Shown here piece after piece: positions 1 through 30,000 of a stretch of 64,000 bases of DNA. The stretch is from Pecten maximus (lineage: Eukaryota). The stretch spans positions 39,804,001 to 39,868,000 of the forward strand of contig NC_047016.1 in assembly GCF_902652985.1 (NCBI RefSeq). The letters run 5' to 3'. The position numbers are program-made. Every line of letters starts with the position of its first letter. Positions within the stretch are counted from its first letter, which is position 1.

Positions 1-3000
1 AATAGAGTCCATCAGCGTAGACACATACGTCTCCCTCCGTGCAAGGCTCGACAGCGTCCAATATATCACACCCATTGACGCCCGCCTTTGTGTAATTACC
101 TGTATATATGCATAAAGGAACATATCTTAATGAATTTATTGTTTTATGCTTTGGAGCAAACGTTTTAAAAGTGGTTAAAAGTCAGTCACTTATAGTTTAA
201 GTTTTGTTCTTATCTTTATTTTCCCACATTAATAGCCCTGGTTGCAGGGTAATATATAGAGGTTACACAATGAGTGGTTGTTAGATATGGAATTTATTTC
301 ACACGAGTAAGTTATTTTTTAAAAGTTGCCAAAAACACTCGCTTTGTTGGATATGGAATTTATTTCACACGAGTAAGTTATTTCTGAAAAGTTACAAAAG
401 ACACGAGATTTAGCGAGTGTTTTATGCAACTTTTAAAAAATAACTTACTAGTGTGAAATAAATTCCATATCTAACAATTTCGAGTCGTGTGACCTGTTTC
501 TACCACAATAATATCGGCTTGAATCAAAGGGAAACTTGGCCAAGTATAATTTCGCGTATGCAAATAAAGTGTACCGGTGACGTCATTAGATTATTGATGA
601 CGTCAATAACAATTGCAGCTTGGGTCAAAGTTCACCGTGTTAGCCAATCAAAATGCGTACATAGTTTATACCACGTGTGGTACAAACAGATTGTTAATAA
701 ACAGCTGTAATGATTAACTGATGGTCTGAGAGTTGAATAACACAGGGTATTGTGGTAGAAAAAAAAATTATTAACCCAATGATAGCATATTTCACGAGGG
801 TTTTCGCCGAGGGAAATATGACATAAGAGAATAAAAAGATAAACATTTGTTGCCACATATTTCTTCTTGTCTTTGTCGTTGTATAACGTTATAGGCTATT
901 TGGCTCAACAGTACCTAACGTACCCTATTATATTTCTTTATACAAAATTGTTATTGTTTCTTTATCTGTCGACGTTTTCAATATTTATATCACACTTAGT
1001 TGGAGCATATTGAAATAAATTTACGCTGCACAAACGTTTTTTTAGAAATAATTTATGTAAACAATATATACTAATCAGTAAAATTGTAGTGTTTATAAAA
1101 ATCTATAAACAGAATATCAACAAAATCATCATTATTACTAGATTTTTGTATTTGTTTTACCAATTAGATTTTTACTAAATTGTAATTTATGATTTGATAC
1201 TTACGGTAAACAGAGGTAAGGTCCTGTAATCCGTACACAATTACGGGGATTGTTTGACCTCCCGCGTAAAATGGTTCTCGTTCGAATGTGATGTCCTGAA
1301 TGGCCTTAATCAGACGATTCACCACATCCGAGTTGTTGACCACATATAGTTCATGGTACACTACGAGCGAGCCTGCCCTGTAGCACACAATATACGAATA
1401 ATGTGTAAATCATTTCAAAACTTGCATATATAGGTAGCCTACTATTTGCTTATAATGAATACACTTTCAAGTATGAGTTCAATACCTTCTCAAGTCAGAC
1501 ATGTCATACATAAAAATACAATATAACGCGTAACATTTGCTTTCTTTTAATTCTAGTTACTGGGTGATTCCTAACCAAGAAAGTACAAACATAGCATGAC
1601 ATTCAGCTAACTATTAAAACATAACAATTTTAACTTAAAAATTAAAAAAAAAAAAATAATAATAATAATAATCTTCAAAACTATCGCGATATATATATAT
1701 ATATACAAAAAAAAATTTTTCCCGGCTACCATATGATTATGATTTTTTTTGTCTTATTATAACGACTCTCGTTTAACCAAATCTTTGATTAAATGTATGA
1801 TTTTTCCTTGTATCATGACAAATTCAATAATTCATCTTCTTACTACGAAGAACATTAAATTTAGAGACCACAAATCATTTCTTATCAGCACCGGACTTTG
1901 TTTTATATATTATTGCAAACCACCAGTATATATAATAACGCGAAATAACTGAACGACACAACAAACTGTAATTTATTATAGAAAATGTACATTCCATGTG
2001 GTTTTTGTTTTCAGTATAGTGATACAGAGGAGACTAAGACAGTAAATATTCCAAACATATTTATCAAATCCTACATTGTCAACTCCTTTATGCTATATTT
2101 AACAATTGCTGTATCAGGAAAAGGCGATTTTCACGTGGACGCTACTTCGTTTTAGATGATATTTTAAAATACAAATAACCCGAATCTCATTAATGAATTT
2201 CTTTGATTTAATAATAACAAATTCTAAAAGTTAAAGAGGCTTACCCGCAGACGGACCGGTAAACGGCACATCTCCGATCACTAAATAAACTTTCTATGTG
2301 ACAAAATTAGAGGCTTTCCGACTTTATTTCTTGAAAACAATTACATCATATGTATTTAAAAGACGTTTTAAAACTCAACCTGAGAGGGAAATGTATGGAA
2401 TATAACGGCAAATCTTCTTTGTAAATCGCCGCTGCCTTTGAAGTTATCACTGTGCGGTACTGTGCACGTGCTTGTTTCTTTGATGTGTCAATCAAATTAT
2501 ACTCAACTTTATAGCGGGGACTTATTGCGGGTTGCGATTAAATAAATAATATTTAAAAAATGAGGTTTTAATATCACTTTTCAGCGTTTTATAAGGAAAA
2601 TAAAATGAAAAACTCAACAATTCCAACTATCTGTCATGTGTAAAAAATCTTTTTCTATTAGCGAATTTTTCTGATCTCTCTGCGGGCAAGCCTCTCTAAT
2701 GTATGTTAAAAAAATTAACATTAAGTTAATATATGTAAAACGATACATATATGACGTAACCTACCTAATATCGGTTAGTCTAACACCTTTGAAGTCTACT
2801 AAGGTTCTGTTGTAGGCGTCAGTGAACTGAAATACAAAACGGCAGGAGAAATGTTACTTAACATAAAACACAGATGATTGACATAAGACGTATTAGCTCC
2901 ATGTCATGTACTTCACAAACAAACATCTTGATATAACTAGGTGTGTGTGGTATCTGCATTTTGCACCATTTTAAAAATTTGAGTGAAGTAGTATGCATTT

Positions 3001-27000: not shown

Positions 27001-30000
27001 GATAAAACCCCAAGGAAGCCGCTAGAACGCTAATTAACTTTGGCGTTACGCACGTGCATACTTACAAGAACATTTATATAAACCTATATTATCGGGTACG
27101 TACATTTCTACGGCAGGGGACTAATCAGTTATGCAAATGGAGTGAATGGAAAGCTGTTAGGCTGGACGTTTTGTTTGACCTTATCTCGACGGCAATTGAT
27201 AAACTGGTATCTAAAAATTTATATTATTACCATAAATTATAATATTTGGGACTGAAGCTAATTTTCCTTATGTAATATTCCTGTATGTTAAGTGTATTGC
27301 ACATATATACTAGGCAATTTTTGCATCATCTTAATTTTCATGATATTTGCATTATGGATACTTAAATACGTGAGTCTTGAGCAATTAAGATCATATTCCA
27401 CAAATATATGGAAATATCTATTAAATCATTTTAAGGCCACATATATACAAGGTTGTTTGAAGTAACTTTGGGGGAAAGTTTGTCAACTGGCGGGTCGTTA
27501 CAAAAAGAGACTGACCGTAAAAACAATGTTATGATTAAGAAATAAATCCTCAATTAACTAAGTTGAATGTTTAGAGTTTTGTCAATATCGGGATACAATC
27601 ACATTCGAGCGAGAATTTCATTAATTAATTAAATATTTACACAAATCCCCCCCCCCCCCCCCCCCCCCCCCCCAGATTAACTTGTGAAACTTTAGCTTAT
27701 GTTTTTATATACACATACTGAGAGGCTGTTGTATTCCTGATTCGTAGTAGGCAGAGGCACCGCCGGCGTCAGCAAATCGGACGACTGTTGCACGGACAAT
27801 GACAAATCGCCTTGGTCTTCTCCAAACGCAAAGAATCCTGGAGATGTGGCTGGAATTAATACAAAAATATCTAGCTGTGATATTATAGACTAAAACAACA
27901 CACAATTTTGTCCAAGATGCTAGAAATTACACCTTTTGTAACGACACCTGAATAGTACCCCTCCGTGACTGAGACAGTATAATATCGTCCCTGTGTGACT
28001 GAGACAGTATAATATCGTCCCTGTGTGACTGAGACAGTATAATATCGTCCCTGTGTGACTGAGACAGTAAAATATCGTCCTGTATGACTGAGACAGTATA
28101 ATATCGTGCCCGTGTGACTGAGACAGTATAATATCGTGCCCCGTGTGACTGAGACAGTATAATATCGTCCCCGTGTGACTGAGACAGTATAATATCGTCC
28201 CCGTGTGACTGAGACAGTATAATATCGTCCCTGTGTGACTGAGACTGTAGAACACCCCCCCCCCCCCCCCCCTCGCTTGTAAATGAGACAGTAGAATGTC
28301 CTCCATTTGTAATTGAAACAGTATAATGTTATCCTTTTGTGGTTGAGACAGTCGAATATTGCCCCGCTACGAATAATACAGTAGAATGTCACCCGTTTGT
28401 AATGGTGACAGCCAGGCGTCGCTTCTTTATGAATGAGACTTTGAACAAGGTGATTTTCGTCCATTTCTAGAGTTGACTTGATAGTGAATATTAAAAATTT
28501 ATTTTTCAATGCATTCATTTGGTTTTCACTCTAAATGATGCTTTTCATATTGATCATTCAAAAGCAGTACCTAGAAACTTTGTGAAATACCACTGCTCGA
28601 TCTGACCACCCAATAGTCTTTAACGCTGACAGCACAAGTTAAAAAGCTTTTAAATGAGATTTGAAAAATACGAAATTTCAGTATTGAGAAATCGTTTCTG
28701 AGATATACCTCCATCTCTAAGGAAGTGTCGACATTTCAGTTTGTGCTCTACATGGAGACGTATACCCGGACCCGACCTCTATATAAAGGTCCAGAATTAG
28801 TTAAACAAGTATCTCTCTTTCAATACGTACGCAACGCGTCACGTGTCAAACTATGTCCGTCGTCACGTGTCAAACTATGTCCGTTCTGGATCTCTCCACC
28901 AACCAATCCACGTTATTTTTACAATAGCAGAATTTATCAGAAAATGAGAGAAAAAAAAATACAATTTAGATTACATTCATATATGAAATAATCTCGACGA
29001 AAGACAAAAAACAACAAAATCGACTAACTATCCTCCCTTGTATAATTCAATATTATGCCCATATAAGCAAGAATGTGTAAAAGCAGTAATATTTCCAGAA
29101 ATATCCATCAGAATACGAATATTTGTCAAATATCCCAGAATTACTGGCACGTAGACTGCCAACCCCCTGTGGTCATGCTACATTTGTCAAGCGCACCTTT
29201 GACAGCGCGTGGCCACGATGTGGACGCACGTGAATAATGGAGGAACTATTTTAGATCTGTACATTTTCTGCCACTTATCATTTGAGTGCGAATTTTATTT
29301 TGAGAGGAATTTGGAGGATAGCTGGGAGGTACTGACCATCTTCCCTACTTCATTACGACCTAAGGTAAGTGTGTTGTCCTCCCTACTTCATTACTACCTA
29401 AGGTAAGTGTGTTGTCTTCCCTACTTCATTACGACCTAATGTAAGTGTGTTGTTCAGATCATGCAGTGTATACTACTTTACACGTGTGTTTGCCTGGAAG
29501 GTTGTTGGAGTGCAAGCAAGTGTGACAGTCGCACGAGCTTGTATACATTGTAGGTCAGTGTCGGTGCCCGTCAAAGCACAAGTCAAAATATCGGCACTTC
29601 CTTCAATACGACGACCGTAACAAACTGTAACCACAAGGGAACATCTCGAAAACGATTTCTGAATACTGAGACTTCGTACATATTTTAAAATCTCAATTGG
29701 AAGCTTTTGAACTTGCATTGTCAGCACAAGTTGGCATCCCATCTCCTTTACGCAGCACATGCACAGATTCGATCAGTCCACAAGTGCCTGACTCGTATCA
29801 TATAATAATAACATATAAGAGTACATAAATGGATATGTACTATTATATGTTATTATTATGTAAAACGAGTCCGGCACCTGTGATAGGATCAACACTGACA
29901 ACATCACAGTAGAACAATGTTTTGAAAAGAGCACACATCGCAGAGCTGACCGGTGGTGTACATAGCACAGGGGCCTGATAATTTGAGAGTCTTCTTGTAT

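What the first reader, a model, noticed from the sequence alone, without database searches (positions are those of the whole stretch)
1205..27849. One mucin combining the MUC4-type NIDO-AMOP-VWD (GDPH) module with a SEA (GSLVV) module
Seen: one phase-consistent spliced frame carries GDPH (exon 23191-23436) and, after about 24 EGF-like modules, a SEA domain with RAGSLVV (exon 1205-1377). Known: vertebrate MUC4 has NIDO-AMOP-VWD with GDPH but no SEA, while MUC1/3/12/13/17 self-cleave at SEA G|SVVV-type sites and lack NIDO-AMOP-VWD. Inference: a chimeric mucin with two potential autoproteolysis sites, which could release the glycan brush and the EGF stalk separately. The TM segment is not in the window. 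Related invertebrate mucin-like proteins exist, so how new the architecture is remains untested.
Basis: partly seen in the sequence, partly recalled or inferred. Interest (0 to 1): 0.68.

Follow-up and report, generated by a model that had tools for sequence, protein, structure and literature searches.

The report
Scallop membrane mucin: MUC4-type module plus SEA
A bivalve gene encodes a giant cell-surface mucin that carries both the MUC4-type module and a SEA domain; the combination is real, but it is already described in sea anemones and is present in gene models of other molluscs.

Summary
On the minus strand, AG/GT-bounded exons in matching phase encode these parts in order:
- NIDO
- a Cys-rich module at the AMOP position
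- a cysteine-free VWD that starts with GDPH (23414-23425)
- C8-3_MUC4
- about 24 EGF modules
- a three-exon SEA-like domain with G|SLVV (G/S at 1371/1370)
- a 4-Cys EGF-like exon that runs off the window start

A 2645-aa exon (73% S+T+P) splices in phase onto NIDO.

Two scallop RefSeq models are collinear from NIDO to the post-SEA exon.

SEA support is indirect. Pfam SEA misses the single exons, and the Ylistrum orthologue scores only 19.0 bits. However, a profile built without the scallop orthologues ranks the three SEA exons 1-3 of 2302 ORF pieces. The orthologue model (pLDDT 89) has SEA topology, and its best Foldseek matches are SEA domains. The Babylonia homologue scores 54.7 bits.

AMOP is not confirmed. 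Both cleavages are inferred, and the Argopecten orthologue has G-N at the SEA site.

NIDO-AMOP-VWD plus SEA is in print for sea anemones (PMC9080433). Verdict: a new molluscan member of a known kind.

The parts
49985..50053 (-). Candidate start codon (ATG 50051-50053) and signal-like N-terminus MEKPVRGITIWIIAASLIQITNQ, followed at once by S/T-rich sequence
   Evidence: Read from the sequence and ORF 49292-50092. No signal-peptide predictor was run; this is an inference.
40266..50050 (-). PTS array 1: 45-bp (15-aa TTTTDVPTTTSTAGV) repeats. As assembled it is not one open frame. It holds a 500-N gap (40471-40970) and a non-repeat interruption of about 1.35 kb (47037-48385).
   Evidence: TRF period 45, 134.8 copies at 98% match, plus 34.2 more copies. 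168 anchors, 21 frame switches, spacings 45 x142, 44 x15, 46 x4. The ATG frame stops at 49292.
31672..39609 (-). PTS array 2: a single 7938-nt exon of 2645 codons, T 49%, S 14%, P 11%, with no stop and no Cys. Its donor is in phase 1.
   Evidence: ORF 31625-39649; AG/GT ends, phase and composition; TRF period 42, 180 copies.
25476..27849 (-). NIDO domain in three exons (27719-27849, about 26426-26803, about 25476-25697). The first exon accepts phase 1 from PTS array 2.
   Evidence: Pfam NIDO 37.1 bits (cut-off 25) on 26372-26833, and a weak 15.6 bits on 25479-25724. Splice ends. tblastn to P0004/P0003.
23990..25094 (-). Cys-rich module at the AMOP position, in two exons (about 24774-25094 and 23990-24193)
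   Evidence: tblastn 69-82% identity to the orthologues. No Pfam AMOP hit. 8 invariant Cys in 8 aligned mollusc sequences. AMOP 16.8 bits only in the Patella homologue.
21227..23436 (-). VWD domain in three exons (23191-23436, about 21849-21989, about 21227-21421). GDPH at 23414-23425, with the D|P bond between 23420 and 23419. There is no cysteine in any of the three exon translations.
   Evidence: Pfam VWD 30.5 and 26.3 bits. PDB phmmer: FCGBP E=1.3e-16, then MUC5AC, MUC2 and VWF; chain 8r0t_C starts at the residue aligned to the P of GDPH. Cys counts.
20661..20903 (-). Mucin-4-like C8-3 domain
   Evidence: Pfam C8-3_MUC4 33.0 bits, cut-off 25.
19050..20517 (-). Linker exons (about 20386-20517, 19917-20006, 19050-19238) with weak Ig-like signals and one EGF-like Cys pattern
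   Evidence: tblastn. He_PIG E=0.028 in the orthologue. Big-like E=0.0071. Weak leads only.
3730..18338 (-). EGF stalk: about 20 exons, about 23 modules, mostly calcium-binding EGF
   Evidence: 18 of 18 ORF pieces between 3625 and 15810 had EGF-family hits; 14 of 18 reached the EGF_CA cut-off. Collinear with P0003/P0004.
3206..3327 (-). SEA exon A (FTGRMFRLLTSFVYTVTDTQALENSSSSYYQELLTDFTEG): strand 1 and helix 1 by analogy with the orthologue model
   Evidence: Profile hit E=0.25 (rank 3 of 2302), or 0.029 with the 9-row profile. Orthologue model.
2765..2826 (-). SEA exon B (FTDAYNRTLVDFKGVRLTDI): end of helix 1 and strand 2
   Evidence: Profile hit E=0.13, rank 2 of 2302.
1205..1377 (-). SEA exon C (AGSLVVYHELYVV...). 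The candidate G|S scissile bond lies between 1371 and 1370. It covers strand 3, helix 2 and strand 4.
   Evidence: Profile hit E=8.1e-6, rank 1 of 2302. 82% and 77% identity to the two scallop models.
1..99 (-). Start of the post-SEA 4-Cys EGF-like module; it runs off the window. The TM segment and tail are not in the window.
   Evidence: tblastn to P0004 1837-1868. Cassette profile E=4.5e-4. TM and tail seen in the orthologues.

Best explanation
The window holds most of one bivalve gene for a type I membrane-tethered mucin. Its best matches are scallop proteins, and I do not take it for human.

Order of parts, from the outside of the cell to the membrane:
1. A signal-like start.
2. Two Thr-rich PTS arrays, the O-glycan brush.
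3. NIDO.
4. A Cys-rich module at the AMOP position.
5. A cysteine-free VWD that begins with GDPH.
6. C8-3_MUC4.
7. A rod of about 24 mostly calcium-binding EGF modules.
8. A SEA-like domain with G-S-L-V-V at the turn between strands 2 and 3.
9. A 4-Cys EGF-like module.
10. In the orthologues, a TM helix and a cytoplasmic tail.

Shown here: the exons, their order and phases, the domain families NIDO, VWD, C8-3 and EGF, and the SEA fold of the orthologue.

Inferred: the protein is cut at GD|PH as MUC4, SUSD2 and FCGBP are, and at G|S as MUC1-type SEA domains are. That would give three chains that stay together without peptide bonds. Each cut would then act as a force-sensitive latch rather than an automatic release. 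Under shear, the brush could come off at the VWD, or brush plus stalk at the SEA, without tearing the membrane.
For: Anatomy and phases:
- AG/GT ends and matching phases at PTS2 to NIDO and through SEA exons A, B, C to the post-SEA exon.

Domains:
- NIDO, VWD (twice), C8-3_MUC4 and EGF hits above Pfam cut-offs on single ORF pieces.
- The VWD exon matches FCGBP at E=1.3e-16. A solved FCGBP chain begins at the residue aligned to the P of GDPH.

One gene:
- XP_060067948.1 (Ylistrum balloti 'mucin-like protein') and XP_069119594.1 (Argopecten irradians) align collinearly from 27850 to 2.
- 3 of the 34 other representative hits carry NIDO plus the SEA-homologous region. They are from Babylonia, Mytilus and Patella.

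SEA:
- The three exons rank 1-3 of 2302 ORF pieces.
- Pfam SEA E=0.0016 in the Ylistrum C-terminus.
- 14 of the 34 hits carry Pfam SEA at E<=0.001, and 10 of the 34 reach the cut-off. Babylonia scores 54.7 bits at the aligned place.
- AF2 model of the Ylistrum C-terminus: pLDDT 89.4, order strand-helix-strand-strand-helix-strand, with G63-S64 between strands 52-61 and 65-74.
- Best Foldseek matches are MUC16 SEA5, TMPRSS6 and the mouse transmembrane-protease SEA (TM by target 0.57-0.62).
- Atlas nearest clusters are named SEA, at 0.85-0.87. That score range is a lead only.

Motif conservation:
- G-S in 21 of 22 aligned rows.
- GDPH in 11 of 11 homologues examined.

Mucin part:
- PTS2 is 2645 aa, 73% S+T+P, with a phase-1 donor.
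- The Mytilus model XP_076089996.1 has about 2365 aa of 55% S/T/P directly before the NIDO region.
Against: - Pfam SEA gives no hit on any single SEA exon, even at E<=10. The Ylistrum orthologue reaches only 19.0 bits against 26.4.
- PDB sequence search of the orthologue's C-terminus found no SEA chain.
- Foldseek had 0 matches at E<=0.001. The best was 1.1e-3, and unrelated alpha/beta folds are mixed into the list.
- The Argopecten orthologue has A-A-G-N-L-I-V, with no Ser nucleophile.
- AMOP is unconfirmed.
- The N-terminal model was too poor to use, at pLDDT 43.8.
- PTS array 1 has 21 frame switches, and the ATG frame stops after about 254 codons as assembled.
- The two scallop models start at NIDO without any PTS.
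- No transcript or protein data were available.
- The MUC4 and SUSD2 GDPH cut may need an enzyme (PMC6696261 passages).
Confidence: 0.7

Rival explanations
1. It is the same single gene, but the membrane-proximal module is a non-cleaving SEA-like spacer. The GDPH site is cut, if at all, by a protease rather than by itself. The protein would then be a one-cut (MUC4-like) or uncut tether, not a two-latch device.
For: - The Argopecten orthologue has G-N at the site.
- SEA is below Pfam's cut-off in both the window exons and the Ylistrum orthologue.
- The best structural matches include MUC16 SEA domains. From recall, many of these do not self-cleave.
- The MUC4/SUSD2 cut is reported as serine-protease dependent (PMC6696261 passages).
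Against: - G-S followed by [LIV][IV]V is kept in 21 of 22 aligned relatives, across very different ectodomains.
- It sits at the strand 2-3 turn of a confident model.
- GDPH is kept in 11 of 11 homologues.
Confidence: 0.25
2. The PTS arrays upstream are not part of this protein. They would be a separate gene, a decayed array or an intron satellite. In that case the product is a MUC4-like adhesion or stalk protein without a mucin brush.
For: - The two scallop RefSeq models begin at NIDO and have no PTS.
- PTS array 1 has 21 frame switches and an N gap, and the ATG frame ends at 49292.
- The PTS2-NIDO intron is about 3.8 kb and is full of minisatellites.
Against: - PTS2 is an intact 2645-codon frame on the same strand. 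Its AG/GT ends and phase-1 donor fit the phase-1 acceptor at 27849.
- Of the 19 off-size repeat units, 15 are 1-bp short and 4 are 1-bp long. My reading is that this looks like assembly error in a repeat.
- The Mytilus RefSeq model joins about 2365 aa of PTS to the NIDO region.
- Gene predictors often drop long repeats (own knowledge).
Confidence: 0.15
3. There are two genes or transcripts. The NIDO-VWD-EGF part ends before 3327, and the SEA, EGF-like and TM cassette belongs to a separate downstream gene.
For: - The same SEA/EGF-like/TM cassette is attached to many other ectodomains in molluscs, so it is a mobile module. Examples are cadherin, reprolysin, Ig and EGF ectodomains.
- No transcript evidence was available here.
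Against: - The last EGF exon ends in phase 1, and SEA exon A begins with the two bases that complete the codon.
- No start codon or signal sequence is needed or seen before exon A.
- Gene models from five mollusc genera keep NIDO and the cassette in one protein.
Confidence: 0.05

Closest known systems
Sea-anemone (Actinia tenebrosa and other Actiniaria) mucin4-like proteins with an added C-terminal SEA domain (PeerJ 2022, PMC9080433; passages read)
   Same: NIDO, AMOP and VWD followed by a SEA domain near a C-terminal TM segment, with PTS-rich regions. The authors already point out that SEA in a MUC4-type protein is unusual. They link it to the idea, which they cite from Zaretsky & Wreschner 2013, that MUC4 came from a SEA-bearing ancestor.
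   Different: - Cnidarian transcripts versus a molluscan genomic locus.
- The passages I read do not mention a stalk of about 24 EGF modules.
- The passages I read do not mention GDPH or G|S motifs.
- Here AMOP is not confirmed by Pfam.
Vertebrate MUC4 (sialomucin complex)
   Same: PTS, then NIDO, then an AMOP-position module, then a VWD with GDPH, then a C8-3_MUC4 match, then EGF and TM. The cut at GD|PH gives alpha and beta subunits (PMC10880436 and PMC6696261 passages).
   Different: - MUC4 has no SEA (PMC9080433 introduction).
- MUC4 has only a few EGF modules (recalled).
- Here there are about 24 EGF modules plus SEA and a 4-Cys EGF-like module before the membrane.
SEA-type transmembrane mucins (MUC1, and the MUC3/12/13/17 group with SEA, EGF and TM)
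   Same: A PTS brush, a membrane-proximal SEA with a G|S[VIL]VV site, then an EGF-like module, a TM segment and a tail. Cleaved halves stay together until pulled apart (PMC10556640 significance text, listing).
   Different: - Those mucins lack NIDO, AMOP and VWD (PMC9080433 introduction).
- The sequence relation here is remote: 19 bits to Pfam SEA in the orthologue.
- Cleavage here is untested.
Mollusc gene models XP_060067948.1 (Ylistrum balloti 'mucin-like protein'), XP_069119594.1 (Argopecten irradians), XP_076455831.1 (Babylonia areolata), VDI73639.1 and XP_076089996.1 (Mytilus galloprovincialis), KAK6180960.1 (Patella caerulea)
   Same: The scallop models are collinear with the window exon by exon, at 51-92% identity per exon. 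All carry NIDO, GDPH, an EGF array and the SEA-homologous region before a TM segment.
   Different: - They are unstudied predictions, named 'uncharacterized', 'hypothetical' or 'mucin-like'.
- The scallop models lack the PTS part.
- Argopecten has G-N at the SEA site.
SUSD2 (and coral mucin4-like skeletal matrix proteins)
   Same: AMOP plus a VWD with GDPH in a type I membrane protein. SUSD2 is cut at GD|PH and its halves stay linked (PMC6696261). Coral mucin4-like proteins have NIDO, AMOP, VWD and EGF (PMC4890752 passage).
   Different: - No SEA is reported in those passages.
- The SUSD2 halves are held by disulfides. Here the VWD exons have no cysteine, so any link would be non-covalent or through neighbouring modules.

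Membership tests
MUC4-type NIDO-AMOP-VWD module | NIDO domain | tested here: met
   Pfam NIDO 37.1 bits (cut-off 25) on ORF piece 26372-26833. 52.6 bits in the Ylistrum orthologue.
MUC4-type NIDO-AMOP-VWD module | AMOP domain between NIDO and VWD | tested here: inconclusive
   - No Pfam AMOP on 24603-25211 (E<=10) or on 23963-24193 (E<=1).
- None in Ylistrum 1-842 (E<=1).
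- In one search, 1 of 3 further homologue stretches hit: Patella, 16.8 bits against 25, covering profile positions 3-132 of 143.
- Atlas: no usable hit.
- PDB: nothing relevant.
- 8 invariant Cys in 8 aligned sequences. This fits my recollection of AMOP's eight cysteines, which no call checked.
MUC4-type NIDO-AMOP-VWD module | VWD domain that begins with GDPH | tested here: met
   Pfam VWD 30.5 and 26.3 bits. GDPH at 23414-23425. FCGBP E=1.3e-16. Its place in the strand 1-2 turn was not checked, because the model had pLDDT 43.8.
MUC4-type NIDO-AMOP-VWD module | Mucin-4-like C8-3 after the VWD | tested here: met
   Pfam C8-3_MUC4 33.0 bits (cut-off 25) on 20613-20906.
MUC4-type NIDO-AMOP-VWD module | Cleavage at GD|PH into two subunits | not testable with these tools
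   Motif only. It is conserved in 11 of 11 homologues.
SEA domain (Pfam PF01390) | Score at or above the Pfam gathering cut-off (26.4 bits) | tested here: not met
   - No hit on the single exons at E<=10. The joined product was not made.
- The Ylistrum orthologue's C-terminus scores 19.0 bits, E=0.0016.
- Homologues at the aligned place: Babylonia 54.7 bits, Mytilus 25.1 bits.
SEA domain (Pfam PF01390) | SEA-type alpha/beta sandwich fold | tested here: met
   The test was on the orthologue, not on the window's own product. AF2 pLDDT 89.4 with strand-helix-strand-strand-helix-strand order. Foldseek ranks 1, 2, 3, 5, 11, 17 and 24 are SEA-bearing chains, TM by target 0.41-0.62 (0.11 for the 720-residue TMPRSS6 chain). 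The best E is only 1.1e-3.
SEA domain (Pfam PF01390) | G|S[VIL]VV at the turn between strands 2 and 3 | tested here: met
   The window reads R-A-G-S-L-V-V. G63-S64 lies between strands 52-61 and 65-74 in the orthologue model. G-S occurs in 21 of 22 aligned rows.
SEA domain (Pfam PF01390) | Autoproteolysis at G|S | not testable with these tools
   Inference only. The Argopecten orthologue lacks the Ser.
Membrane-tethered mucin | Long Pro/Thr/Ser tandem-repeat domain in the same protein | tested here: inconclusive
   PTS2 is 2645 aa at 73% S+T+P, and its splice phase fits NIDO. The Mytilus model joins PTS and NIDO. There is no transcript evidence. PTS array 1 is frame-broken, and the scallop models lack PTS.
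Membrane-tethered mucin | Transmembrane segment and cytoplasmic tail | not testable with these tools
   These lie outside the window. They are present in both scallop orthologues after the post-SEA module.

The most novel reading that the evidence does not exclude
The combination of NIDO, an AMOP-like module, GDPH-VWD, EGF, SEA, an EGF-like module and TM is the ancestral design of animal membrane mucins, shared by Cnidaria and Mollusca. On this reading, vertebrate MUC4 (SEA lost) and the MUC3/12/13/17 group (NIDO-AMOP-VWD lost) are its two reduced descendants. The molluscan protein would then work as a three-chain tether with two separate force-sensitive latches. One sheds the glycan brush, and the other sheds brush plus the EGF rod.
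Probability: 0.25. Interest if true: 0.55.

Novelty: new member of a known kind. Interest (0 to 1): 0.3.

Why it matters
- Evolution of membrane mucins. The gene adds a lophotrochozoan example, with full exon anatomy, to the sea-anemone report that MUC4-type proteins can carry a SEA domain. That bears on the idea that MUC4 descends from a SEA-bearing ancestor.
- A widely reused module. In molluscs the cassette of SEA, a 4-Cys EGF-like module and TM is attached to many different ectodomains.
- A testable case. The gene could show whether two self-cutting or cut-prone latches coexist in one tether.
- Limits. None of this overturns current views, and the functional claims are untested.

Tried and rejected
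1. The exons start mid-codon, and the frames were fixed from the sequence.
2. Pfam on the full-length orthologues listed neither VWD nor SEA. The N-terminal part alone then gave VWD at 58.5 bits. Full-length scans of these EGF-rich proteins therefore under-report, and I do not use their silence as evidence.
3. Two word-indexed region searches, for the SEA region and the AMOP region of P0004, returned only the two scallop models. That was 2 of 156 and 2 of 193 candidates.
4. Local phmmer with default filters lost known relatives. It was replaced by the ranges.
5. PDB sequence searches found no SEA chain for the orthologue's C-terminus and nothing for the AMOP-position exons.
6. Atlas search of the AMOP-position region gave no usable hit.
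7. An AF2 model of Ylistrum 1-842 with an 8-row alignment had pLDDT 43.8, with residues 1-415 all below 50. It was too poor to search with and was not used.
8. One paper search was badly framed and uninformative: 6,022 papers, and none of the 15 listed held 'AMOP'.
9. Considered and rejected: a human or vertebrate origin, because the best matches are scallop proteins. Also a chance GSLVV match, because of the exon ranks.
10. Not done:
   - Joining the exons for an InterProScan-type scan or a fold of the window's own product.
   - Filling the N gap.
   - Any search of the closed metagenome and viral collections.
   - Reading the supplements of PMC9080433 and PMC4890752.

Full report
**What the window is.** It is AT-rich (33-38% G+C) below 28 kb. 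Between 32 and 48 kb it is G+C-richer with strong strand skew. All coding signal for this finding is on the minus strand. The best protein matches are two scallop RefSeq models: XP_069119594.1 from Argopecten irradians (P0003) and XP_060067948.1, 'mucin-like protein' from Ylistrum balloti (P0004). Per-exon identity is 51-92%. I therefore take the window for a bivalve of the scallop kind, not for human sequence. One run of 500 N (40471-40970) was left as it is.

**Checking the observation.** Read from the sequence, exon 23191-23436 has AG and GT ends and encodes FLFGDPHFTTLDG..., with GDPH at 23414-23425. Exon 1205-1377 encodes AGSLVVYHELYVV.... Their ends are AG/GT and their phases fit one another. 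They also fit the last EGF exon before them and the exon after them (1-99), which runs off the window. The junction of exons B and C gives ...GVRLTDI-R-AGSLVV.

Between VWD and SEA, 18 of 18 ORF pieces from 3625 to 15810 gave EGF-family Pfam hits, and 14 of the 18 reached the EGF_CA cut-off. Four pieces hold two modules. Two further exons have an EGF-like cysteine pattern without a Pfam hit. 'About 24' is therefore fair.

**The MUC4-type part.** On single ORF pieces, Pfam gives these scores:

| Domain | Score (bits) | Cut-off (bits) | ORF piece |
|---|---|---|---|
| NIDO | 37.1 | 25 | 26372-26833 |
| VWD | 30.5 | 22.9 | 23060-23446 |
| VWD | 26.3 | 22.9 | 21065-21559 |
| C8-3_MUC4 | 33.0 | 25 | 20613-20906 |

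The GDPH exon matches solved FCGBP at E=1.3e-16, then MUC5AC, MUC2 and VWF. One FCGBP chain (8r0t_C) begins exactly at the residue aligned to the P of GDPH. That is the cut form seen in a structure. GDPH is present in 11 of 11 mollusc homologues examined. The three VWD exon translations contain no cysteine.

AMOP is the weak point. There is no Pfam AMOP hit on the two exons at that position. There is none in Ylistrum residues 1-842, and none in the Babylonia and Mytilus stretches. The Patella stretch gave a sub-threshold 16.8 bits that nevertheless spans profile positions 3-132 of 143. The Atlas and PDB gave nothing. Eight cysteines are invariant in 8 aligned sequences. This agrees with what I recall of AMOP, but that is recall, not a test. 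I call it a Cys-rich module at the AMOP position, probably a divergent AMOP.

Exon by exon, Pfam SEA finds nothing even at E<=10. Three indirect lines support SEA.

1. Homologues that score. A full HMMER search with the Ylistrum C-terminus (212 aa) found 35 proteins at E<=0.001. Of the 34 others, 14 carry Pfam SEA at E<=0.001, and 10 reach the cut-off. Three carry NIDO as well:
   - Babylonia areolata: SEA 54.7 bits at the aligned place.
   - Mytilus galloprovincialis: 25.1 bits.
   - Patella caerulea: no SEA hit.

   The Ylistrum piece itself scores 19.0 bits, E=0.0016.
2. An exon-wise profile test. I aligned 20 of those 34 hits, the ones whose match ran through SEA toward the membrane. The other 14 were multi-SEA or partial matches and were dropped. 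I built a profile without the two scallop orthologues and ran it over all 2302 six-frame ORF pieces of the window. Exons C, B and A came first, second and third (E=8.1e-6, 0.13, 0.25), in profile order. With only the 9 rows whose proteins have Pfam SEA, exons C and A were first and second (3.6e-4, 0.029) and exon B was fourth (1.7). The cassette profile also hit the post-SEA exon at E=4.5e-4. These relatives were found through the orthologue, so this test shows the exons belong to that set. It is not independent discovery.
3. A fold model. An AlphaFold2 model of the Ylistrum C-terminus (18-row alignment) has mean pLDDT 89.4. Its order is strand, helix, strand, strand, helix, strand, with G63-S64 in the turn between strands 52-61 and 65-74. 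Foldseek against the PDB puts MUC16 SEA5 first (E=1.1e-3, TM by target 0.60). TMPRSS6, another MUC16 chain, the mouse transmembrane-protease SEA (rmsd 2.9 over 95 columns) and 1ivz are also high. No match reached E<=0.001, and other alpha/beta folds are interleaved.

The Atlas's nearest clusters are 'SEA domain-containing' at 0.85-0.87, which the tool rates as a lead only. PDB sequence search found no SEA. Taken together, I accept a divergent SEA domain.

**One gene?** The two scallop models align to the window collinearly from 27850 down to 2, covering every exon except the 20-codon exon B. That exon is too short for a BLAST hit. It was found by eye and by profile. Models from Mytilus, Babylonia and Patella also keep NIDO and the SEA-homologous region in one protein. 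These are predictions, and I had no transcript data.

**Is it a mucin?** Upstream on the same strand lies a single exon, 31672-39609, of 2645 codons. It is 49% Thr and 73% S+T+P, with AG/GT ends and a phase-1 donor that fits the phase-1 acceptor at 27849.

Further upstream is a 45-bp array (TTTTDVPTTTSTAGV units) that reaches a candidate ATG at 50053 with a signal-like start. As assembled, that array changes frame 21 times. Its unit spacings are 45 bp x142, 44 bp x15 and 46 bp x4. The ATG frame stops at 49292. I think assembly error in a repeat is the likelier cause, but I cannot show it.

The scallop models start at NIDO without PTS. The Mytilus model XP_076089996.1 has about 2365 aa of 55% S/T/P directly before its NIDO region.

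**How it most likely works.** Shown: the order of modules. Inferred: the rest.
- The PTS arrays would carry the O-glycan brush.
- The calcium-binding EGF array would form a long, stiff stalk.
- By analogy with MUC4, SUSD2 and FCGBP, the Asp-Pro bond of GDPH would be cut early in the secretory pathway (PMC10880436 and PMC6696261 passages).
- The VWD has no cysteine. The first strand, and with it the brush, would therefore be held by the sheet or by neighbouring Cys-rich modules rather than by an intradomain disulfide. PMC10880436 describes both the disulfide-held and the disulfide-free situations.
- By analogy with MUC1-type SEA domains, the Gly-Ser bond would break during folding and the halves would stay together until pulled apart (PMC10556640 significance text in the listing; Macao 2006 and Levitin 2005 seen only as reference-list entries).
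- The result would be a three-chain tether with two latches.

Two cautions apply. The MUC4/SUSD2 cut has been reported as protease-dependent rather than autocatalytic. The Argopecten orthologue has G-N, so the SEA cut, if it happens here, is not kept in every scallop.

**Comparison and novelty.**
- The PeerJ 2022 paper on Actinia tenebrosa (passages read) describes mucin4-like proteins with NIDO, AMOP and VWD plus an additional C-terminal SEA. It finds the same in three other anemones. It ties this to the proposal that MUC4 arose from a SEA-bearing ancestor.
- Coral mucin4-like matrix proteins have NIDO, AMOP, VWD and EGF.
- Lang et al. 2016 (passages) still cite Xenopus as the deepest MUC4-like protein.
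- The search for 'mucin4-like' with 'SEA domain' found only the PeerJ paper.
- The search for 'AMOP', 'mollus' and 'SEA domain' together found no paper in the library.

So the molluscan case is in databases as unnamed predictions, but in the library I could search it is not discussed. Those of PMC9080433 and PMC4890752 may show more architectures than I saw.

The kind is known, and this is a new member with a much longer EGF stalk. In molluscs, the same cassette of SEA, 4-Cys EGF-like module and TM is also attached to other ectodomains. These are cadherin, reprolysin-type protease, Ig and EGF ectodomains.

| Item | Value |
|---|---|
| Novelty | new member of a known kind |
| Interest | 0.3 |
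| Confidence in the architecture | high |
| Confidence in the mucin link | moderate |
| Confidence in the two cuts | moderate to low, until tested |

Noticed in passing
window 40266-50050 (-): The 45-bp Thr-rich repeat array changes reading frame 21 times. There are 15 units of 44 bp and 4 of 46 bp among 168 anchors. All three frames are open within the repeat, so ORF lists show chimeric frames. This is either assembly indels or real decay. A 500-N gap sits at 40471-40970, and non-repeat sequence of about 1.35 kb at 47037-48385.
   Followed up: partly
window 10922-11394: A 64-bp tandem repeat (7.4 copies, 89% match) copies the 3' end of the EGF exon at about 11341-11472 together with the first bases of its intron. 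The exon end and its donor region are therefore repeated several times downstream.
   Followed up: no
window 16377-18081; 27965-28249; 30063-31256; about 27650-27680: There are intronic minisatellites of 47 bp x36, 30 bp x9.5 and 33 bp x37. A run of about 30 G lies just after the first NIDO exon.
   Followed up: no
window 50101-51555 (+): Three consecutive ORF pieces are separated by stops. The last one matches Pfam zf-RVT (31.8 bits). This is a decayed retroelement tail lying just 5' of the candidate mucin start, on the other strand.
   Followed up: partly
window 52568-53911; 54056-55155; 56934-59457: Three further satellites of 45 bp x30, 32 bp x34 and 23 bp x110. No coding signal was seen in them.
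   Followed up: no
window 40106-40135 (-): A candidate 30-nt mini-exon (AG...GT, phase 1 to 1, reads ..TTTPGTTFS..) lies between the two PTS arrays. It would link them in frame.
   Followed up: no
P0003 (XP_069119594.1, Argopecten irradians), SEA site: This orthologue reads M-R-A-A-G-N-L-I-V where the window and 20 other aligned relatives have G-S. It is a natural variant without the Ser nucleophile.
   Followed up: partly
P0041 (XP_076089996.1, Mytilus galloprovincialis, 6369 aa): This model has about 2365 aa of PTS, then two tandem NIDO-to-EGF bodies (GDPH at 2743 and 4599). Only the second body ends in a GSLVV SEA region. It is either a tandem duplication within one gene or two neighbouring genes fused by the predictor.
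   Followed up: partly
P0005-P0038 (one search hits): In molluscs, a cassette of SEA, a 4-Cys EGF-like module (4 invariant Cys) and TM is attached to cadherin, reprolysin/ADAMTS-like, Ig and EGF ectodomains. The motif R/S-x-G-S-[LIV]-[IV]-V is nearly invariant across them.
   Followed up: partly
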